Shown here: positions 36,723 to 44,007 of the stretch, piece after piece
Position numbering within the stretch: position 1 is the first letter of the stretch
How the letters are laid out: each line of letters opens with the position of its first letter
From: a virus
Taxonomy: Duplodnaviria; Caudoviricetes
Length of the DNA: 64,000 nt
Virus record (IMG/VR): IMGVR_UViG_3300031555_006395
Location: 17,682 to 81,681 of that record
Direction: 5' to 3' (one strand)
Made by a program: the position numbers and the translations under genes
Notes under the pieces: model-generated
Told to the model about the DNA's origin: nothing
Database searches by the model: none
Seen by the model: only the letters and a program-made list of their open reading frames with translations

Positions 36723-37662
36723 CGAAGAATTAAAAATGGAATATCTAAATGCTGTTTGTATGAACGCTCCCGAATCCCGCAGAACGGTTTATATAAACAA
36801 AATGAAACGCCTGTCTCAGAATATTGAGGTTGTCTTTAATAAGGATTTTTGCAATATTTCATTTGGAGAATACCAAGCTTTCTTTACAAGCGGCGCTTAT
36901 TCTGATACCCGTACTGCCGGTAATGATTTACGTTTCATTTCGAATTATATCGAGTGGTGTTTTTACAACAACAAATTCCCACGTGTGATGAATAATGCGC
37001 AGCTTTTGTTAAAACAGCTGAAGCCAACAGATATTGTTAAAGGTGCCATTCGAAACAAGATTTTATTTTCACCTGCAGAATTAATCGATTATATAGATAT
37101 ATTGTGTTCAGGAAGTTCAAAATACTACTTGTTTATGCCTGTTTCAATTCTTCTGTTTTCTGGTGTTTCGTTCGATGAAATACACTTGATCAAACGCGAT
37201 GATATTGATAATCTTGCGATGACAATTCATTTCAACGATGTAATTTTAGATATTCCCCATGAATTTCAATTACACGTTAATAGAATTCTAAATCGAGAGA
37301 AAAAAGTTGAGGTCTTCGCTTTTAGAACCGATGATTCTCGTTCGTACACAATGTATGACGCATATCCGGATATGTTTTGTACTGTATATAATCACACAGG
37401 TATTCCACCGTCAAATTCGATACAGAAATCTTATACTGTCTCTTTATCTACCGCAAAGGCAGCTGTTGATACGGGAGTTAAAAAAATCGGACCGTTGGAT
37501 ATTGCTATCTCAGGTTTATTTTATCGGTTAAATAAAAACAAATATACGGATTTAAATAATCCATTGGCGCAGCAATTTTTATTGAGATTTAATAATTCTG
37601 GAAATAAAATGAAAGAATTAACCCTGTTATATAGTGAGTATTTAGATAGTATAAATGAATAG
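36715..37662 (+). CDS. catalytically dead tyrosine-recombinase-fold protein, SPbeta MrpR/YopR-like repressor
   Basis: MLNEELKMEYL N-terminus; LLFSGVSFDEI (box I Arg absent); PLDIAISGLFYR; no HxxR. Confidence 0.75.
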   Translation: MLNEELKMEYLNAVCMNAPESRRTVYINKMKRLSQNIEVVFNKDFCNISFGEYQAFFTSGAYSDTRTAGNDLRFISNYIEWCFYNNKFPRVMNNAQLLLKQLKPTDIVKGAIRNKILFSPAELIDYIDILCSGSSKYYLFMPVSILLFSGVSFDEIHLIKRDDIDNLAMTIHFNDVILDIPHEFQLHVNRILNREKKVEVFAFRTDDSRSYTMYDAYPDMFCTVYNHTGIPPSNSIQKSYTVSLSTAKAAVDTGVKKIGPLDIAISGLFYRLNKNKYTDLNNPLAQQFLLRFNNSGNKMKELTLLYSEYLDSINE

Positions 37663-37683
37663 AAGCCCAATTATTTGGGCTTT
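37663..37683 (+). terminator. intrinsic terminator
   Basis: AAGCCCAA-TTAT-TTGGGCTTT. Confidence 0.7.
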
Positions 37684-37707
37684 ATAATATTAAATGAAAT
37701 TAAACTA

Positions 37708-37736
37708 TTGATAAAATTAGAGTTTTATGTTATAAT
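37708..37736 (+). promoter_or_regulatory. mazF promoter with an embedded palindrome
   Basis: TTGATA-17 nt-TATAAT; TAAAA-TTAGAG-TTTTA at 37712-27. Confidence 0.75.
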
Positions 37737-37765
37737 AACGACACCAAAACGAAAGGAGGACGTCA

Positions 37766-38107
37766 ATGGAAACAATTAAACGAGGAGATATTTATTATGC
37801 AGATCTTAGCCCCGTTGTTGGATCTGAGCAGGGAGGGACCAGACCAGTAATTGTATTACAAAACAATACCGGCAACCGTTTTTCTCCAACAATTATCGTT
37901 GCTCCGTTTACCAGTAATAAAGGGAAAAAGATGCTGCCAACACATCTTTTGATGAAAAGCGAAGAAACGGGATTGCCGAAGGATTCCATCGTCCTGCTCG
38001 AACAGGTGAGATCAATCGATAAAAGTCGATTGGTTAGCGAAAACGTTGGAAAGATTCGGAATTTGGATACTTTAAATGAAATCATTAAAGTAGCTTTTTT
38101 TGGGTAA
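37766..38107 (+). CDS. mazF: MazF/PemK endoribonuclease (no adjacent antitoxin)
   Basis: IKRGDIYYADLSPVVGSEQGGTRPVIVLQNNTGNRFSPTIIVAPFTS; LLEQVRSIDKSRL. Confidence 0.93.
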   Translation: METIKRGDIYYADLSPVVGSEQGGTRPVIVLQNNTGNRFSPTIIVAPFTSNKGKKMLPTHLLMKSEETGLPKDSIVLLEQVRSIDKSRLVSENVGKIRNLDTLNEIIKVAFFG

Positions 38108-38167
38108 TCAATAATAAAATTGATTACATCGATTTATAATAAAATGAAGCGCTATGCCGCTTCATAT

Positions 38168-38259
38168 GGGAAGTTGGCTGAGTGGTTGAAAGCGGCGGTC
38201 TTGAAAACCGCTGATGGAGTCAAATCCATCCGAGGGTTCGAATCCCCCACTTCCCGCCA
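38168..38259 (+). tRNA. tRNA-Ser(UGA)
   Basis: GCGGT-CTTGAAA-ACCGC; long variable arm; CCA. Confidence 0.93.
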
Positions 38260-38262
38260 AAT

Positions 38263-38338
38263 GCGGTCGTAGCTCAAATGGCGGAGCATCTGCCTTCCAA
38301 GCAGAGGGTTGCGAGTTCGATTCTCGTCGGCCGCTCCA
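38263..38338 (+). tRNA. tRNA-Gly(UCC)
   Basis: TCTGC-CTTCCAA-GCAGA; U73; CCA. Confidence 0.93.
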
Positions 38339-38357
38339 ATAACAAGGGAGGGTTAAT

Positions 38358-39227
38358 ATGAAAATTCAGTCCTTATCGGTTGTAGTACCGGCAAAACAAT
38401 GCATTAATAATTGTAAATTTTGTGTAGCCAGAATGAAAGAAGAGCCCTATAAAAATCAATTCGATGCAAATCTTCCGTTTTATCATCTCTATCAGGATGA
38501 TTACTTAAAACGATTGGCATTTGCTAGAGATAATGGTTGTAATACGGTGATGCTTACCGGCAATGCTGAGCCGCAACAGAATAGAGCTTTTCTAAAAGAT
38601 TTTGGAACACTAAACAGACAATTGGAAAGACCCTTCCGATGGATAGAGATGCAGACCACAGGGAGATTGTTGGATGATCCGTATCTTAGATTTTTAAGAA
38701 ACCATGTGGGTGTTTCTACAATTTCGCTCTCAATTTGCTCCTTTGATGATATAAAAAACGGAGAAATCTGCCAAATGAAAGAACCTGTGGATCTGCATTA
38801 TCTCTGCCATGAAATTAAACGATATGATTTTAATCTTAGAATTTCTGTGAACTTAACCGATGCGTTCAACCATATGGGCGCAGAAGAAATTATTGATTAT
38901 TGTAAAAATGAGTTGAAAGCAGATCAGATTACATTTCGTGTATTATATCAGTCTGATGGGAATACCGACCAAGATAAGTGGATTGATGAGCACGCTGCCA
39001 AACCAAAGCTAATTGAAGAAATCAAAGAATATATTCGGAGATTCGGCAGACCTTTGGAACGTTTGGTTTTTGGCGCAATGAAATATTCGATTAAGGGAAT
39101 GTCTGTTGTTTTGGACGATGATTGTATGGCTACAGCGACAGATAAAGAAGAGCTGAAATACTTAATCCTTCGTCCTAATTGTAAACTTTATAGTAAGTGG
39201 GATGATCCGGCAAGTTTGATTTTTTAG
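38358..39227 (+). CDS. radical SAM protein
   Basis: CINNCKFC (CxxxCxxC), TGNAEP. Confidence 0.85.
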   Translation: MKIQSLSVVVPAKQCINNCKFCVARMKEEPYKNQFDANLPFYHLYQDDYLKRLAFARDNGCNTVMLTGNAEPQQNRAFLKDFGTLNRQLERPFRWIEMQTTGRLLDDPYLRFLRNHVGVSTISLSICSFDDIKNGEICQMKEPVDLHYLCHEIKRYDFNLRISVNLTDAFNHMGAEEIIDYCKNELKADQITFRVLYQSDGNTDQDKWIDEHAAKPKLIEEIKEYIRRFGRPLERLVFGAMKYSIKGMSVVLDDDCMATATDKEELKYLILRPNCKLYSKWDDPASLIF

Positions 39228-39235
39228 GGGGATTT

Positions 39236-39508
39236 ATGATGTTGACGAATTATGATGTTATTAAATCTATGAGCGGAAAAGATCTTCAATTATTTTTAGA
39301 TGTTGTTTATTGTGCCGGCTTAAATATTGGCGGTTATGCCGCGACTCTTCCGGAAGGTGAACAATGCGAAATCCTCGCTGATTCTCCTTTTAATGACTGG
39401 CTCTTTGAAGCTGCTGAAGAAGCGTTTGGGGTTGATGGAAATTGTTATTGCAAACCATACTTAAAAACTGTTATGAAAGCTGCGAGGATTCAAGATGACG
39501 AAAATTGA
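39236..39508 (+). CDS. hypothetical protein
   Basis: MTNYDVIKSMS-type N-terminus. Confidence 0.65.
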   Translation: MMLTNYDVIKSMSGKDLQLFLDVVYCAGLNIGGYAATLPEGEQCEILADSPFNDWLFEAAEEAFGVDGNCYCKPYLKTVMKAARIQDDEN

Positions 39509-39758
39509 AGAAAGTTTTTTTGAAGCGCTTCGTTATGCTGCAGATCGCGATATGTTGGTAAACATACAAACATATAAAGGAAAATTCTTTTGCCATGTCC
39601 AATATGATAAAAAAATAGAAGGATATGCAGGTTTTTCTCACAATCATTCTTTTCAAGAACAAGATTTGAATCTGATAAACCTGATACATTCGATTCGTTC
39701 TTCTACGGATATGATTTTAGAAAGAGTTAAGTTAAGTCAGCAATTAGATCATGATTAA
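39495..39758 (+). CDS. hypothetical protein
   Basis: Overlaps the previous ORF. Confidence 0.55.
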   Translation: MTKIEESFFEALRYAADRDMLVNIQTYKGKFFCHVQYDKKIEGYAGFSHNHSFQEQDLNLINLIHSIRSSTDMILERVKLSQQLDHD

Positions 39759-39876
39759 AAATTTGGTGCTGTTTTTACATAACAGTTAAATGTCCAGTAA
39801 GGCTAAATATCATATGGAGTCGCCAAGTGATCCGTGATAATCCTAAATGGTATAAAAGAGGAAACAGCCAATTTAT

Positions 39877-39955
39877 GCACCATTAGCTCAGTTGGTTAGA
39901 GCAGCGGCCTTATAAGCCGTGTTTGTCCAGAGTTCGAATCTCTGATGGTGTACCA
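39877..39955 (+). tRNA. tRNA-Ile(UAU), copy 1
   Basis: GCGGC-CTTATAA-GCCGT; cloverleaf with CCA. Confidence 0.85.
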
Positions 39956-40081
39956 ACCTCTCACTTGATTAGCTGCTAGGAGAGTGAGTCTCATTGCGTG
40001 AAGGCTACATGATGAATGAGGGTGTAAGCTAAGGAAAACCTTACAATGGATAGGTACCATAACAAATCCTGTCCACCTTAT

Positions 40082-40156
40082 GGAGATAAAAGGGACTCAT
40101 AAGGCTGACGAAAAGTGTAGGCACTGAGGGTGGCTCGACTCCACCTATCTCCACAA
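40082..40156 (+). ncRNA. tRNA-like RNA resembling a tmRNA tRNA-like domain
   Basis: GGAGATA/TATCTCC-A acceptor, GGTGG-CTCGACT-CCACC T arm, no D stem, CTCA/TGAG-closed long stem; ends ACAA. Confidence 0.45.
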
Positions 40157-40160
40157 ATAC

Positions 40161-40234
40161 TGTCAGTTAGTATAAAGGTAGTACACAAGACTTTGACTCT
40201 TGTAGAGTGGGTTCGAGTCCTACACTGACAACCA
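40161..40234 (+). tRNA. tRNA-Gln(UUG), copy 1
   Basis: CAAGA-CTTTGAC-TCTTG; TGTCAGT/ACTGACA; CCA. Confidence 0.9.
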
Positions 40235-40235
40235 A

Positions 40236-40394
40236 TTGGTCTATGTTGTTATCTGAACGATAGAGACCTGTCCTCGTAGTACAGCATCGAGTGGGGAACG
40301 ACAAGCCTACACGTTGAATAGTGTTCGTACAGGTGTTTTGTTGAACAAGCAGTAGGTTAAGAATAAACACCGTGGGAACTACGAGAGTGCCAAA
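40236..40394 (+). ncRNA. candidate pseudoknotted ncRNA
   Basis: CTCGTAGT/ACTACGAG closing stem; crossing GCCTAC/GTAGGT and GGTGTTT/AAACACC. Confidence 0.5.
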
Positions 40395-40397
40395 TAT

Positions 40398-40472
40398 ATT
40401 GGTGTAGTTTATCTGGTAAAACGGCGGTCTCCAAAACCGTTGATGAGAGTTCGAGTCTCTCCACCTTAGCCA
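40398..40472 (+). tRNA. tRNA-Trp(CCA) with mismatched acceptor-stem top
   Basis: GCGGT-CTCCAAA-ACCGT; pairs 1-3 are A/A, U/U, U/U. Confidence 0.7.
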
Positions 40473-40616
40473 GTGGGGGCAGAGAGCAAATGTCCACCAG
40501 CCCCAGTGTCAAGTGAACAAAATAGCATTAATTGTGCACGTTAATGTTATTAGTAGCAAGACAGGCCAAGAGAGGTGGGATGTGTGGTTGCCGGTGAATC
40601 CTAAAACCGAAGATAC

Positions 40617-40692
40617 GCACCACTAACTCAATGGTTAGAGTACCCGGCTTATATCCGGTTAGTTCAAGGTTCGAGTCCTTGGTGGTGTACCA
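40617..40692 (+). tRNA. tRNA-Ile(UAU), copy 2
   Basis: CCGG-CTTATAT-CCGG; GCACCAC/GTGGTGT; CCA. Confidence 0.85.
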
Positions 40693-40774
40693 ACATACTT
40701 CTTATATCATGTTCCTTTCATTTTCATGTTGACAAATCGGAAAGACGGTTGACGGTGGGACAGACCACAACTAT

Positions 40775-40850
40775 GTCCTTGTAGCCCAACGGCAGAGGCA
40801 GAAGTCTCAAAAACTTCTTAGTGTGGGTTCGAATCCCACCAAGGACACCA
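40775..40850 (+). tRNA. tRNA-Leu(CAA), short variable loop
   Basis: GAAGT-CTCAAAA-ACTTC; 76 nt. Confidence 0.85.
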
Positions 40851-41290
40851 ATTCTCCGTGGACATAATAATCGGATGGGTTTTAGGAGGTCCATAAACGA
40901 AGCCCCTCAAGCCAAAATGTTGTAATTGCGGACAGATAATATCACTGCCCAAAAGTTTGGTATTTGATGATATTCGTGGAAGCTACGATAGTGTCAACTT
41001 CCCAACATACTCTCATGCGTGGGTGAAATAAGAAGAGAGAGCGTGGAAACTACGTAAGTGCCAATCACAGCTAAGACTTTGACCGAAGCAACCCAAAAAC
41101 TTTGGCAGATGTAACAGCTGTACTATTTGGATAGCTTCCAAATGATGTGTGAGATTATCGGCTTACCACACAGAGAATGAAAATGTCCGCTGAAAACTGC
41201 GGAGCAATCGGGTATACACGGTTGTTTGCGAACGAAACCTTTACTCTCAAATAGACGATGTGACAATCTAAGCGGGAAGCCGATTTATAT
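40851..41290 (+). ncRNA. candidate large ornate ncRNA (GOLLD/ROOL-class or novel)
   Basis: About 440 nt with no credible ORF, bounded by two tRNAs; long-range helices and two pseudoknots. Confidence 0.6.
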
Positions 41291-41367
41291 GCTCCCATAG
41301 TCCAATTGGCAGAGACAGAGGACTTAAAATCCTTACAGTGTGGGTTCGAATCCCACTGGGAGTACCA
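41291..41367 (+). tRNA. tRNA-Leu(UAA), short variable loop
   Basis: GAGGA-CTTAAAA-TCCTT; CCA. Confidence 0.88.
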
Positions 41368-41482
41368 TATCATTAAATCACCAGTCGAACAAAGGAAAGC
41401 CTTTAGTGGGTCGTGAGTTACCTTAAGATCCTATTTAGCGGTTGAGAAAAGCGAAGTACAAGCCAGGTGAGCCGCCATATAT

Positions 41483-41557
41483 TCTGGGTTGGTGTAATTG
41501 GTAACACAACGGACTTTGGATCCGTTATTGGGAGTTCGAATCTTCTACCCAGAACCA
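41483..41557 (+). tRNA. tRNA-Gln(UUG), copy 2
   Basis: ACGGA-CTTTGGA-TCCGT; TCTGGGT/ACCCAGA; CCA. Confidence 0.88.
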
Positions 41558-41582
41558 TTTTTATATTAGGAGGGAATTACAT

Positions 41583-41813
41583 ATGGCAATGAAACCGCAA
41601 CAGTTACAAGAGTTTGAAAAAATGGTGCATGACAAAATGAAACAGGTATACAACGATGGAATGACTGTGGGCGCAAAAGCAATTATGTCTGCTATTAATG
41701 ATATGATTGAGCGTGGAAAAGGTCGGCCTTGCAAAATGATTCTTTCTGAAATCAAAAGCTTTGTCAGCACCGCCGTAAGGGAGGAAAACGATGAGAATAC
41801 TTCTGCTTCTTAG
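41583..41813 (+). CDS. hypothetical protein
   Basis: RBS AGGAGG. Confidence 0.7.
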   Translation: MAMKPQQLQEFEKMVHDKMKQVYNDGMTVGAKAIMSAINDMIERGKGRPCKMILSEIKSFVSTAVREENDENTSAS

Positions 41814-44007
41814 AGGTAGTCCTGGTTGTGGAAAAACGACTTGGATTGAAAAAAATGGTTTAAAACCATACACTCTGTCTGCCGACGATATTCGCATGAT
41901 GTGCCAAAGCCCAATTTTAACTGTTAATGGCGGCGAAGCAATTGATCAAACGAACGATAAATTGGTTTGGCAGACATTATTTAAATTACTTGAAAATCGA
42001 ATGGAAAAGGGCGCTTTCACGGTAATCGATGCAACAAATTCTAAAACGACTGAAATGAATCGGTATAAAACTTTATGTGAGACATATCGCTATCGTATTT
42101 ATTGTGTCGATTTTACTGATATCCCTATTGATGAAGCAAAACGCAGAAATAAATGCCGTCCTTTATCGAAAGTCGTTCCTGAAGAAGTAATCGATAAAAT
42201 GTATTCCAGATTTGCAACTCAGAAAATACCCTCTGGCATTAAAGTAATTCGTCCTGACGAATTAGACTCTATTTGGATCCACAAAATTGATCTTTCGCAA
42301 TACAATAAAGTCCATATGATTGGCGATATTCATGGGTGTTGCACTGTATTAAAAGAATATATGGATGCAAATTGGAATGAAAATGATTTTTATATTTTTT
42401 GCGGAGATTATATCGATCGTGGCATTGAGAACGTACAGGTAATTAATTATCTGCTTTCTATTTATACCAAGCCTAATGTTTTATTATTAGAGGGTAACCA
42501 TGAACGATGGCTTCAGATATATGCTCATGGAGGAGCAACCAGGTCACAAGAATTTGAAACGCATACAAGAGCCCAGTTAGATGCAGCCAATTTCGACAAT
42601 CGACAGCTCCGGCAGCTATACAGGAAACTTGGACAATGCGCTTACTTTTCCTTCGGTGACTACACTTATCTTGTAACGCATGGTGGCTTAAGCCAAATTC
42701 CAATCAATCTCAGTTTAGTTCCTACACATCAAATGATTCATGGAGTTGGCAGCTACAGTGATTATGAAAAGGTTGCCGACACTTTTTATTATTGTACCCC
42801 TGAGAAAACCTATCAGGTTTTTGGGCATCGAAATATTAAAAATGCTCCTATTCAATTAAACGATAAAGTATTTGATCTCGAAGGTGGAGTTGAGTTTGGC
42901 GGATCTTTGCGATGTGTCCAATTTGCGAAAGATGGATCTTTTGAAACATTTTCAATAAAGAATAATGTGTATCGTCAAACTGAATCAAAACCTCAAGAGG
43001 TATCGAATAATAAAACCGTTGCCGACATTATTGTTGAGTTCCGAAATAATAAGTATATCAAGGAAAAGAAGTTTGGTAATATATCATCTTTTAACTTTAC
43101 CCCTACAGCGTTTTATGAAAAGATTTGGGATTCTCAAACTATTAAGGCCAGAGGACTATATATCGATATTGAAAAACAAAAAGTAGTTGCACGCAGCTAT
43201 GAAAAGTTTTTTAGAATTAACGAGCGGCCGGAAACGAAGTTGGAGATGTTGCAGTATAAACTTCAATTTCCAATTAGCATTTATGTTAAAGAAAATGGAT
43301 TTTTGGGAATTGTTAGCTACGACGAGTATAAAGATGATCTGTTTGTAACAACGAAATCTGATCCTACCGGTGATTACGCAGAATGGTTAAAGGCTATGTT
43401 ATGCGAGAAATTATCGGATCAACAGAGATTACAGTTAAAGGAATACTGCAAACAGCATAATGTTTCCTTTATTTTCGAATGTGTTGATATGAAAAACGAT
43501 CCTCATATCATCGAGTACCAAGACAATCAACTGTATTTGTTGGACATTATAAAAAACGCAATTACATTTGAAAAATTGCCATATGAGGATCTTTGTCATG
43601 TTGGTCATAGTATTGGACTGCTTGTTAAAACGAAAGCTTGCGATATATGCACTTGGCAGGAGTTTTACGATTGGTATCATGAGGTCAACTTAGAGGATTA
43701 TGAATATAATGGCGCACCGGTCGAGGGTTTTGTTATTGAGGATTCGAAAGGATATATGGTAAAGGTAAAACTTCATTATTATAACTTTTGGAAATTCATG
43801 AGAGGCATCTCCCATGAAACCCTTCGGAAAGGATATATTTCAAAAACATCTTCATTAACATCAGCGCTGGCGAATCAATACTACGGGTGGCTTAAATCTA
43901 TTTATGATCCACAGAATCGTGATCAAATACCGAAAGATATTATTACATTAAGAAAAATGTTTTATATCGCAATGGCTGAAAAGGAGGGGTTTTCCAATGA
44001 TTGTTAA
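41791..44007 (+). CDS. trifunctional RNA repair enzyme: polynucleotide kinase, metallophosphatase and T4 Rnl1-like RNA ligase
   Basis: GSPGCGKT P-loop; GDIHG, GDYIDRG, GNHE; KENG (motif I), EGFV, VKVK. Confidence 0.88.
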   Translation: MRILLLLRGSPGCGKTTWIEKNGLKPYTLSADDIRMMCQSPILTVNGGEAIDQTNDKLVWQTLFKLLENRMEKGAFTVIDATNSKTTEMNRYKTLCETYRYRIYCVDFTDIPIDEAKRRNKCRPLSKVVPEEVIDKMYSRFATQKIPSGIKVIRPDELDSIWIHKIDLSQYNKVHMIGDIHGCCTVLKEYMDANWNENDFYIFCGDYIDRGIENVQVINYLLSIYTKPNVLLLEGNHERWLQIYAHGGATRSQEFETHTRAQLDAANFDNRQLRQLYRKLGQCAYFSFGDYTYLVTHGGLSQIPINLSLVPTHQMIHGVGSYSDYEKVADTFYYCTPEKTYQVFGHRNIKNAPIQLNDKVFDLEGGVEFGGSLRCVQFAKDGSFETFSIKNNVYRQTESKPQEVSNNKTVADIIVEFRNNKYIKEKKFGNISSFNFTPTAFYEKIWDSQTIKARGLYIDIEKQKVVARSYEKFFRINERPETKLEMLQYKLQFPISIYVKENGFLGIVSYDEYKDDLFVTTKSDPTGDYAEWLKAMLCEKLSDQQRLQLKEYCKQHNVSFIFECVDMKNDPHIIEYQDNQLYLLDIIKNAITFEKLPYEDLCHVGHSIGLLVKTKACDICTWQEFYDWYHEVNLEDYEYNGAPVEGFVIEDSKGYMVKVKLHYYNFWKFMRGISHETLRKGYISKTSSLTSALANQYYGWLKSIYDPQNRDQIPKDIITLRKMFYIAMAEKEGFSNDC

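What the first reader, a model, noticed from the sequence alone, without database searches (positions are those of the whole stretch)
40851..41290. About 440-nt ornate, doubly pseudoknotted RNA bounded by two tRNA-Leu genes
Seen: no credible ORF; 9-bp TGGAAGCTA (40977-85)/TAGCTTCCA (41132-40); crossing TGCCAA/TTGGCA (41059-64/41102-07) and ACAGCT/AGCTGT (41067-72/41116-21); ATCGGCTT (41157-64) in the loop of GTGTG/CACAC pairs with AAGCCGAT (41277-84); several further hairpins. Known: GOLLD and ROOL large ncRNAs occur in Firmicutes phages, GOLLD often beside tRNAs, with unknown function. tRNA processing would release this RNA precisely. Inference: a GOLLD/ROOL-class or new large ncRNA.
Basis: partly seen in the sequence, partly recalled or inferred. 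Interest (0 to 1): 0.75.

Follow-up and report, generated by a model that had tools for sequence, protein, structure and literature searches.

The report
New pseudoknotted RNA behind phage tRNA
The 440-base gap between two phage tRNA genes is not one large RNA: its first 147 bases are an intact copy of an uncatalogued, knot-folded RNA family that phages keep as a single copy directly behind a tRNA, and the rest is poorly conserved filler.

Summary
The quoted bases are at the stated coordinates, between tRNA-Leu(CAA) and tRNA-Leu(UAA), in a phage tRNA cluster. Its longest helix clashes with a conserved hairpin. No Rfam 15 family matches, so this is not GOLLD or ROOL.

The interval is composite. 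Bases 40851-40997 are an intact member of an RNA family I found in about 19 lineages of uncultured phages. The family starts at the base after the upstream tRNA's CCA. Helices P1', H2, H3 and an H3-loop pseudoknot are backed by compensatory changes; the 3' hairpin H4 differs between lineages but was not counted. A second loop-loop contact is invariant and therefore untested.

All five other carrier records searched whole hold one copy, against 2-6 tRNAs. This window also holds a diverged copy at 40274-40397. One close relative lacks the whole interval and another lacks the diverged copy, so each keeps one copy. Bases 40998-41290 have no homologue. They hold a truncated repeat of the family's 3' end and one unusually stable hairpin pair.

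Function is untested. I favour a stable RNA released by tRNA processing. A self-cleaving tRNA-trailer ribozyme is the main rival. The scan has not noted this family on other DNA.

The parts
40775..40850 (+). tRNA-Leu(CAA) with encoded CCA. Its last base is the base before the family RNA.
   Evidence: ARAGORN; Rfam tRNA 61.5 bits
40851..40997 (+). Intact copy of the uncatalogued phage RNA family (the whole unit).
   Evidence: CM R1: 104.4 bits, E 6e-30. 87% identical to L103/L107 and 76% to L105. No Rfam hit.
40851..40864 (+). Nearly invariant 5' motif directly after the CCA (AAUUC, two variable bases, CG, UGGACA).
   Evidence: Alignment A3 invariant columns 4-7 and 10-16; upstream context
40855..40875 (+). 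Helix P1': 40855-58 pairs with 40872-75. In other phages it encloses an insertion of 0 to about 110 nt.
   Evidence: 97.7% of cells paired. The second pair occurs as C-G 9, A-U 7, G-C 4, G-U 1.
40860..40892 (+). Possible second pseudoknot: GGAC 40860-63 with GUCC 40889-92.
   Evidence: 100% complementary but invariant (one G-U), so neither supported nor refuted by covariation
40877..40905 (+). Helix H1: GGG 40877-79 with CCC 40903-05, enclosing the conserved AGGAAGUCC...GAACGAAG loop.
   Evidence: Recovered by RNAalifold. Almost invariant, with only G-U changes.
40911..40961 (+). Helix H2: 40911-16 pairs with 40956-61.
   Evidence: 3 pairs (A1) and 5 pairs (A3) with changes on both sides; RNAalifold
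40917..40929 (+). Junction J, 13 nt, containing the near-invariant GUAAUUGC.
   Evidence: Alignments A1 and A3. Part of this conservation was imposed by the search pattern.
40930..40950 (+). Hairpin H3: 40930-35 pairs with 40945-50, with a conserved mismatch at the third pair.
   Evidence: 5 of 6 pairs with changes on both sides
40938..40974 (+). Pseudoknot: H3 loop 40938-44 pairs with 40968-74.
   Evidence: 5 or more contiguous Watson-Crick pairs in 10 of 13 cognate loop/strand sets, against 6% of non-cognate sets, with nine different sequences
40975..40997 (+). Hairpin H4 (40975-79 with 40983-87) plus tail. This is the 23-nt motif copy B.
   Evidence: The motif occurs 3 times in the window against 0.04 expected. 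Other lineages have different complementary hairpins at the same place.
40998..41064 (+). Linker plus a truncated repeat (41029-41064) of the 3' end of the diverged copy at 40358-40393. Contains 23-nt motif copy C (41042-64).
   Evidence: 81% identity over 36 nt, z = 9.1 against shuffles. No other family similarity.
41067..41144 (+). Two hairpins (41067-41121 and 41124-41144) of unusual stability. Possibly an RNase III-type processing site (inference).
   Evidence: -24.9 kcal/mol against -11.8 +/- 2.5, z = -5.3, 0 of 200 shuffles. Of four variants in relatives, two fall on its two 1-nt bulges, one keeps a G-U pair and one opens an end pair.
41146..41290 (+). Remainder of unknown nature. Holds a 25-codon ORF at 41177-41254.
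   Evidence: Fold z = -2.1. No homologue in any fetched locus. The two variants in the ORF are synonymous third positions.
41291..41367 (+). tRNA-Leu(UAA).
40274..40397 (+). Second, diverged copy of the family, between tRNA-Gln and tRNA-Trp. H2 is 40305-10 with 40352-57, the pseudoknot is 40332-38 with 40365-71, and motif copy A is 40371-93.
   Evidence: CM with filters off gives E 0.24, the best sub-threshold hit. nhmmer E 0.007. Helices read.

Best explanation
The interval is composite.

Bases 40851-40997 encode an intact member of a phage-specific, multi-pseudoknotted RNA family of about 147 to 260 nt that no RNA catalogue holds. The family is normally a single-copy gene inside the phage tRNA cluster. 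Its first base follows the CCA of the upstream tRNA, and its last hairpin usually lies within about 12 bases of the next tRNA.

I propose that the RNA is transcribed as part of the tRNA precursor. It would be cut free at its 3' side by RNase P acting on the downstream tRNA, or here by cleavage in the hairpins downstream. At its 5' side it would be cut by an endonuclease in the invariant single-stranded AAUUC after the CCA. It would then persist as a compact stable RNA that acts in trans on an unknown partner.

Bases 40998-41290 are lineage-specific filler: a truncated duplicate of the family's 3' end, an unusually stable hairpin pair that may be a processing site, and 145 nt of unknown nature.

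Shown: family membership, the fold, copy number, tRNA adjacency, and presence or absence in relatives. Inferred: co-transcription, the cleaving enzymes, stability and action in trans.
For: Family and fold:
- The window copy scores 104 bits, E 6e-30, against a model built from homologues.
- There are 38 matches in uncultured phage contigs, and further diverse members in L270-L276.
- Compensatory changes support P1', H2 and H3.
- The pseudoknot is complementary only within cognate sequences.

Not catalogued:
- No Rfam 15 match on the window or on five homologue loci.

A gene rather than a per-tRNA signal:
- Five of five other records hold exactly one copy, against 2-6 tRNAs. Two of them are complete genomes.

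Ends tied to tRNAs.

Redundancy in this lineage:
- A contig of relative X18 joins 40852 to 41308, so it lacks the interval but keeps the diverged copy.
- A contig of relative X2 replaces 40236-40389 with 64 nt but keeps the interval (table 5).

Filler:
- No homologue of 40998-41290 beyond the 23-nt motif.
Against: - No transcript ends, abundance or stability were measured.
- The only RNA-library cover is an assembled contig that may derive from DNA.
- The 5' abutment to CCA is what a trailer ribozyme would also show.
- A structure flush against an encoded CCA would hinder exonucleolytic 3' trimming of that tRNA unless something cuts exactly there.
- Some members precede an ORF rather than a tRNA (L270, L273, L279), so the 3' release route is not uniform.
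- The window copy has lost its downstream tRNA.
- Most alignment rows come from one metagenome and are near-identical. Effective diversity is about 13 to 19 lineages.
Confidence: 0.55

Rival explanations
1. The family is a new class of self-cleaving ribozyme. It would cut at its own 5' end, directly after the encoded CCA of the upstream tRNA. That would mature the tRNA's 3' end, as theta (HDV-like) ribozymes are proposed to do for CCA-less phage tRNAs.
For: - The 5' end coincides with a tRNA or tRNA-like CCA in 16 of about 19 lineages, behind many different tRNAs.
- The compact multi-pseudoknot core has many invariant junction bases.
- The invariant AAUUC at the junction is unpaired in the model.
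- Theta ribozymes are a precedent in gut phages (PMC10879173).
- The window phage encodes a kinase-phosphatase-ligase that could clear a cyclic phosphate.
Against: - There is only one copy per genome against 2-6 tRNAs.
- No Rfam ribozyme family matches.
- There is no G at +1 and no P2-type helix as in HDV-like folds.
- Ten other carrier records, two of them complete, lack a T4-type RNA ligase (positive control).
- Three lineages lack an upstream tRNA (L105, L108, L271).
Confidence: 0.15
2. The RNA is a cis-acting spacer domain with no role in trans. It would insulate the folding of neighbouring tRNAs, present cleavage sites to host RNases, or block exonucleases at the ends of precursor pieces.
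For: - It sits between tRNAs.
- Its 3' hairpin-plus-tail motif also stands alone directly before tRNAs, ORFs and a tRNA-like element, once right after a consensus promoter.
- Earlier notes of this scan describe small protective pseudoknots in viral tRNA arrays. These are leads only.
Against: - Only one spacer per cluster carries it.
- About 45 invariant positions and at least one covariation-backed pseudoknot are more than a spacer needs.
- The window copy is intact although it no longer precedes a tRNA.
- The coremin-type signature named in those notes is not enriched in this window.
Confidence: 0.17
3. One reading: the whole 440 nt is one large ornate ncRNA of the GOLLD/ROOL class or a new large class, folded through the long-range helices listed.
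For: - There is no ORF.
- It is flanked by tRNAs.
- A contig from an RNA library runs from 40865 to 41212 without a break. This is weak, because DNA may be present in that library.
Against: - There is no GOLLD or ROOL match.
- The helices are at chance level.
- The 9-bp helix conflicts with conserved H4.
- Only 40851-40997 has homologues.
- The family ends at H4 and is followed by a tRNA or an ORF elsewhere.
Confidence: 0.03
4. The interval is non-functional debris from rearrangements in the tRNA cluster, such as decayed tRNAs and repeats.
For: - It is present or absent between close relatives.
- It contains a truncated repeat.
- The 3' 293 nt have no homologues.
Against: - The 5' 147 nt keep every conserved helix and motif of a family held across diverse phages.
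- Variant 40888 G>A in relatives restores the family consensus.
- No tRNA-model hit lies in the interval even at E <= 10.
Confidence: 0.05

Closest known systems
Phage T4 stable RNAs rnaD (species 2) and rnaC (species 1)
   Same: - Both are non-coding RNAs of 119 and 139 nt inside a phage tRNA cluster. rnaD starts one base after tRNA-Arg, and rnaC starts directly after the CCA end of rnaD.
- They are annotated as small stable RNAs, and no function is known (the latter is my own knowledge).
- rnaC begins AAUUAUCG, much like the family's AAUUCUCCG.
   Different: No detectable homology: model R1 finds nothing above noise in the T4 region. T4 rnaC ends in a tRNA-like T arm. No pseudoknot core of the kind seen here is described for them.
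Theta (minimal HDV-like) ribozymes of gut phages (PMC10879173)
   Same: Both sit directly at the 3' end of phage tRNAs in gut Caudoviricetes, carry nested pseudoknots, and are confined to phages.
   Different: Theta ribozymes are minimal HDV-like folds (their size of about 50-60 nt is from my memory). They start with G1 in a P1 helix and have a catalytic C in J4/2. They mostly follow tRNAs without an encoded CCA (4.5% with CCA). This family is 147-260 nt, starts with an unpaired AAUUC after an encoded CCA, matches no HDV model, and has not been shown to cleave.
GOLLD and ROOL large ornate RNAs (Rfam; PMC12286853)
   Same: Structured ncRNAs of unknown function.
   Different: They are several-fold larger (from my knowledge), and their Rfam models give no match here at E <= 10. 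The conserved unit here is 147 nt.
Pistol self-cleaving ribozyme
   Same: The core shares a topology: a hairpin whose loop pairs downstream, an A-rich linker, a helix, and then a terminal hairpin. The order here would equal a circular permutation of pistol. This comparison rests on my recollection of the pistol fold.
   Different: No Rfam pistol match. No shared conserved nucleotides could be verified. A further conserved 5' domain of 60-170 nt is present. Cleavage is untested.
Coremin-type exonuclease-resistant pseudoknots (xrRNA-C/WCC; PMC6546385, PMC10321173), reported by earlier notes of this scan in viral tRNA arrays
   Same: Both are small structured elements placed before tRNAs or genes in viral arrays. 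The family's stand-alone 23-nt 3' motif occupies similar positions.
   Different: The YGAD or YGNNAD loop and the conserved spacer that define coremin are absent. The AGAC-N3-AAAC signature is at chance level in the window and absent from the tRNA cluster.
tRNA-spacer-derived sRNAs such as E. coli 3'ETS-leuZ (my own knowledge)
   Same: A functional RNA excised from a tRNA precursor by the tRNA-processing enzymes.
   Different: Those are short, little-structured, Hfq-dependent base-pairing sponges. This is a compact pseudoknotted fold with invariant junctions.

Membership tests
GOLLD (RF01998) / ROOL (RF03087) | Match to the family covariance model | tested here: not met
   cmscan of 37500-42000 at E <= 10 lists no hit inside 40851-41290, and none at gathering score in the window
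GOLLD / ROOL | A single conserved unit of roughly 500-800 nt (size from my knowledge) | tested here: not met
   Only 147 nt are conserved. The family ends at H4 and is followed by a tRNA or ORF in other phages.
HDV-like / theta ribozymes | P1 helix beginning at G+1, the cleavage site | tested here: not met
   The unit starts with an unpaired, invariant AAUUC. The first helix begins at +5.
HDV-like / theta ribozymes | P2 helix joining J1/2 to the 3' end, and a match to HDV-family models | tested here: not met
   No complement between junction J and the tail (by eye). No Rfam HDV-family hit.
HDV-like / theta ribozymes | Self-cleavage | not testable with these tools
   Needs an in vitro transcription assay
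Pistol ribozyme (RF02679) | Match to the model or its conserved nucleotides | tested here: not met
   No hit at E <= 10 or E <= 1 on homologues. A permuted order would escape a covariance model, so the topological likeness stays a lead only.
tRNA or decayed tRNA | Cloverleaf match | tested here: not met
   No RF00005 hit in 40851-41290 at E <= 10. ARAGORN finds none.
T4 rnaC/rnaD | Sequence or structure homology | tested here: not met
   R1 with filters off on the T4 tRNA region: best 3.8 bits, and not in rnaC or rnaD
Coremin-type xrRNA | Short hairpin with YGAD/YGNNAD loop, conserved 10-nt spacer, second hairpin | tested here: not met
   H4 loops are GAA or GAAAGA types with no such spacer. 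Pattern scan gives 7 hits against 6.8 expected, none in the cluster. Criteria.
The new family itself (model R1) | 5' motif after CCA, P1', H1, H2, junction J, H3 with loop pseudoknot, H4 | tested here: met
   All are present at 40851-40997. 104.4 bits; helices.

The most novel reading that the evidence does not exclude
The family is a previously unknown class of self-cleaving ribozyme. It would cut precisely after the encoded CCA of a phage tRNA, making it a second, structurally unrelated tRNA-trailer ribozyme beside the HDV-like theta ribozymes. Alternatively, it is a new trans-acting phage RNA that targets a host tRNA-directed defence or processing enzyme.
Probability: 0.15. Interest if true: 0.9.

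Novelty: new variant of a known kind. Interest (0 to 1): 0.62.

Why it matters
Phage tRNA clusters are increasingly seen as counter-defence and translation-tuning modules. The non-tRNA RNAs inside them have stayed unexplained since T4 species 1 and 2 RNAs were first described.

This work defines a concrete, testable RNA family:
- about 150 nt in its shortest form;
- four helices (P1', H2, H3 and the H3-loop pseudoknot) supported by compensatory changes;
- a 5' end welded to a tRNA's CCA;
- one copy per genome;
- confined, as far as searched, to uncultured phages, with near-identical copies of this one in animal-gut and manure samples;
- absent from Rfam 15.

If it cleaves itself, it is a new ribozyme class and a new route of tRNA 3' maturation. 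If it does not, it is a compact stable phage RNA with an unknown partner.

It is also a caution. Plausible long-range helices in a 440-nt spacer were chance. The real fold was invisible to minimum-free-energy statistics (z = 0.03) and emerged only from homologues.

Tried and rejected
Searches that found nothing useful:
- blastn of the interval and of 38000-44000 against 50,697 GenBank phages gave no match. Family members from other phages hit only one unannotated uncultured record, MT835520.1.
- Synteny through the downstream kinase-phosphatase-ligase (viral and metagenome contigs) and the radical-SAM gene gave relatives of 61% identity or less, without the element and mostly without tRNAs nearby.
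- Exact tRNA-Leu anchors in viral contigs gave nothing.
- The strict core pattern in 185,579 species genomes gave two chance hits in small MAG contigs. This does not prove absence from cells.

Ideas tested and dropped:
- 41065-41145 as a decayed tRNA-Gln. The only link is an 11-nt identity, which is about as likely as not by chance in 2 kb. There is no tRNA-model hit and no similarity to any tRNA in the loci.
- 41146-41290 as a third family copy. nhmmer with --max finds nothing.
- Linkage of the family to T4-type RNA ligase: 0 of 10 other carrier records (control).
- Homology to T4 rnaC/rnaD.
- A coremin-type fold.
- A pairing of junction J with the CCA/AAUU junction. It is possible on paper, but the one variant (L271) is uncompensated, so it is inconclusive.

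Expression:
- A 348-nt contig from a bovine-gut metatranscriptome lies wholly within 40865-41212. The flanking coding sequence has no cover there. Contigs show neither ends nor strand, and DNA may be in the library, so I do not count this as evidence of transcription.

Literature:
- Seven searches returned results. None describes this family.

Full report
**Setting.** The window is part of an 81.7-kb IMG/VR virus record, about 67% complete. The interval 40851-41290 lies in a + strand cluster of nine tRNA genes at 38168-41557.
- Upstream are a MazF-family toxin gene and a radical-SAM gene.
- Downstream is a single-chain kinase/phosphoesterase/T4-type RNA ligase.
- Near-identical DNA occurs in contigs of animal-gut and manure metagenomes: 20 of 24 listed runs, from 14 studies, hold it. 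In the long contigs of the runs I laid, X2 and X11, identity is about 97-98.5%; X20's contig over 40865-41212 differs at 6 of 348 bases.

**The observation.** The flanks are tRNA-Leu(CAA) and tRNA-Leu(UAA), and no credible ORF is present. The helices, however, carry no signal.
- 26.5% of dinucleotide shuffles contain a perfect stem of 9 bp or more.
- Stems of 6 bp or more number 22, against 17.2 expected.
- The fold of the whole interval is ordinary: z = -1.0 on the + strand and -0.7 on the - strand.
- No Rfam 15 family matches inside the interval even at E <= 10. That excludes GOLLD, ROOL and the catalogued ribozymes as far as covariance models can see.

**The interval is dispensable as a block.** Four public runs were laid on the region.
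- A 2.35-kb contig of run X18 joins 40852 to 41308 with 18 replacement bases. In that close relative the two tRNA-Leu genes are about 4 nt apart.
- A contig of X2 replaces 40236-40389, the tRNA-Gln/tRNA-Trp spacer, with 64 unrelated bases. It keeps the interval with 9 differences over the contig's 613 aligned bases (40683-41295).

**A repeated motif led to homologues.** A repeat search found a 23-nt hairpin-plus-tail motif three times in the window: at 40371-93, 40975-97 and 41042-64. Chance expectation is 0.04.
- Scanning viral contigs with this motif gave 14 loci. In most, the motif sits a few bases before a tRNA.
- Bases 40866-40998 proved 87% identical to L103/L107 and 76% to L105.
- A second scan with conserved core blocks gave 39 stretches, 34 of them new loci. 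A third scan with the 5' motif added more diverse members, L270-L276.
- A covariance model (R1) built from 21 sequences finds 38 copies at E between 1e-16 and 1e-48. The window copy scores 104 bits, E 6e-30.
- About 19 lineages are really different. Many rows come from one metagenome and are near-identical.

**The fold, in window coordinates.**

| Element | Position | Support |
|---|---|---|
| 5' motif | 40851-64, first base follows the CCA; AAUUC, two variable bases, CG, UGGACA | nearly invariant |
| P1' | 40855-58 with 40872-75 | 97.7% paired; second pair C-G 9, A-U 7, G-C 4, G-U 1 |
| Insertion inside P1' | none in the window; a covarying hairpin of about 25 nt in most phages; about 90-110 nt with two T-arm-like hairpins in five lineages | |
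| GGAC/GUCC contact | 40860-63 with 40889-92 | always complementary but invariant, so untested |
| H1 | 40877-79 with 40903-05 | recovered by RNAalifold, nearly invariant |
| H2 | 40911-16 with 40956-61 | changes on both sides in 3 of 6 pairs (A1) and 5 of 6 (A3) |
| H3 | 40930-35 with 40945-50 | changes on both sides in 5 of 6 pairs |
| Pseudoknot | H3 loop 40938-44 with 40968-74 | see below |
| H4 and tail | 40975-87, tail to 40997 | different complementary hairpins in other lineages |

For H1, H2 and H3 together on alignment A1, 82.5% of cells are paired against 71.3% in shuffles. The covariation score is 0.248 against 0.079, and 0 of 500 shuffles reach it. Sliding the partners by one to three columns drops pairing to 28-48%.

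The pseudoknot has nine different sequences that are complementary only within their own molecule. Five or more contiguous Watson-Crick pairs occur in 10 of 13 cognate sets, against 6% of non-cognate sets.

The minimum-free-energy z-score of this 147-nt unit is 0.03. Stability statistics are therefore blind to this fold.

**Where the family lives.**
- No Rfam match on five homologue loci at E <= 1.
- Only one GenBank phage record holds it, and that record is uncultured and unannotated.
- The strict core pattern is absent from 185,579 species genomes apart from two chance hits.
- All five other records searched whole hold exactly one copy, beside 2-6 tRNA genes. Two of these are complete genomes.
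- Upstream, 11 lineages have a called tRNA that ends at the element's first base. Five more have a T arm plus acceptor strand plus CCA that the tRNA models do not call. Three have none.
- Downstream there is usually a tRNA within about 12 nt of H4. In three loci (L270, L273, L279) there is instead a ribosome-binding site and ATG, and in others something else.

**The window's own copies.** Besides the intact copy there is a diverged one at 40274-40397 (CM E 0.24 with filters off; nhmmer E 0.007). By eye it has H2 at 40305-10 with 40352-57 and the pseudoknot at 40332-38 with 40365-71. These are the same two crossing helices that an earlier first-stage note had marked there.

Relative X18 keeps that copy and lacks the interval. 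Relative X2 keeps the interval and lacks that copy. Together with the single-copy rule, this suggests that one copy is what selection keeps.

**The other 293 nt.**
- 41029-41064 repeats the last 36 nt of the diverged copy (81% identity, z = 9.1). It lacks the core.
- 41067-41144 folds into two hairpins far more stable than shuffles (z = -5.3). Of the four variants seen in relatives, two fall on the long hairpin's two single-base bulges, one turns C-G into U-G, and one opens an end pair. I read this as a real local structure, possibly an RNase III-type processing site. That reading is an inference.
- 41146-41290 is marginal (z = -2.1) and has no homologue in any locus.
- Both variants of relative X2 that fall in the 25-codon ORF at 41177-41254 are synonymous third positions. 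A metatranscriptome contig matches just 41170-41273 at 85%. I leave this unexplained.

**Mechanism.** I favour a discrete stable RNA gene that uses the tRNA-processing machinery for its ends, as T4 rnaC and rnaD do beside tRNA-Arg.
- Shown: single copy per genome, intact conservation even where the downstream tRNA is lost, and ends tied to tRNAs.
- Inferred: cleavage in the invariant single-stranded AAUUC, release by RNase P, stability, and a partner in trans.

The main rival is a self-cleaving trailer ribozyme. A tight fold flush against an encoded CCA would otherwise obstruct 3' trimming of that tRNA, and theta ribozymes are a precedent (PMC10879173). Against it:
- one copy stands against 2-6 tRNAs;
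- nothing resembles a known ribozyme model;
- ten other carriers lack a T4-type RNA ligase.

A purely cis-acting spacer role is the third option.

**Comparison with known families.** Membership was tested and not met for GOLLD/ROOL, HDV-like/theta, pistol, tRNA, T4 rnaC/rnaD and coremin-type xrRNA. The core's order of helices equals a circular permutation of the pistol fold as I recall it. That is a lead, not a result. Seven literature searches found no description of the family.

**Verdict.** The interval is not a 440-nt ornate RNA. It does hold a real, uncatalogued, pseudoknotted phage RNA of 147 nt whose function is open and readily testable.

Noticed in passing
window 41177-41254 (+): A 25-codon ORF. 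Both variants of relative X2 that fall in it (41218, 41236) are synonymous third positions. A metatranscriptome contig matches only 41170-41273, at 85%. There is no good Shine-Dalgarno sequence.
   Followed up: partly
window 40775-40850 and 41291-41367: Both tRNA-Leu genes are only 76-77 nt, so they lack the long variable arm expected of bacterial-type tRNA-Leu.
   Followed up: no
window 40079-40149; L102:3138-3208: A tRNA-like element (weak tmRNA-model hit at 40082-40156, E 0.0066) is 94% identical to a stretch in L102. There it directly follows a copy of the 23-nt motif.
   Followed up: partly
L106:630-652 (-); L101:1881-1903; L112:1257-1279 (-): The 23-nt hairpin-plus-tail motif also stands alone. 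In L106 it lies right after a consensus -35/-10 promoter and before a tRNA. In L101 and L112 it lies before apparent ORF starts.
   Followed up: partly
L105:315-567 (-), L260:956-1218 (-), L275:4450-4705 (-), L111:1663-1918, L261:900-1045: Long forms of the family carry an insertion of about 90-110 nt inside helix P1', containing two tandem T-arm-like hairpins (GUUCGAnUC loops).
   Followed up: no
window 40730-40765; L103:1987-2023; L107:3325-3361; L102:1266-1317: A further conserved spacer block lies upstream of a tRNA (92% identity to L103/L107). It contains TTGACA-like hexamers and may be a promoter.
   Followed up: no
L268 (T4) 3047 downwards, - strand: T4 rnaC begins AAUUAUCG directly after the CCA end of rnaD. 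This resembles the family's start after a CCA, but the covariance model sees no homology.
   Followed up: partly
window 41791-44007 and 37766-38107: A single-chain kinase/phosphoesterase/T4-type RNA ligase and a MazF-family toxin gene flank the tRNA cluster. The ligase is not found in ten other phages that carry the RNA family.
   Followed up: partly
L270:4238-4420, L279, L273:3460-3633: In these phages the family RNA is followed by a ribosome-binding site and ATG instead of a tRNA.
   Followed up: no
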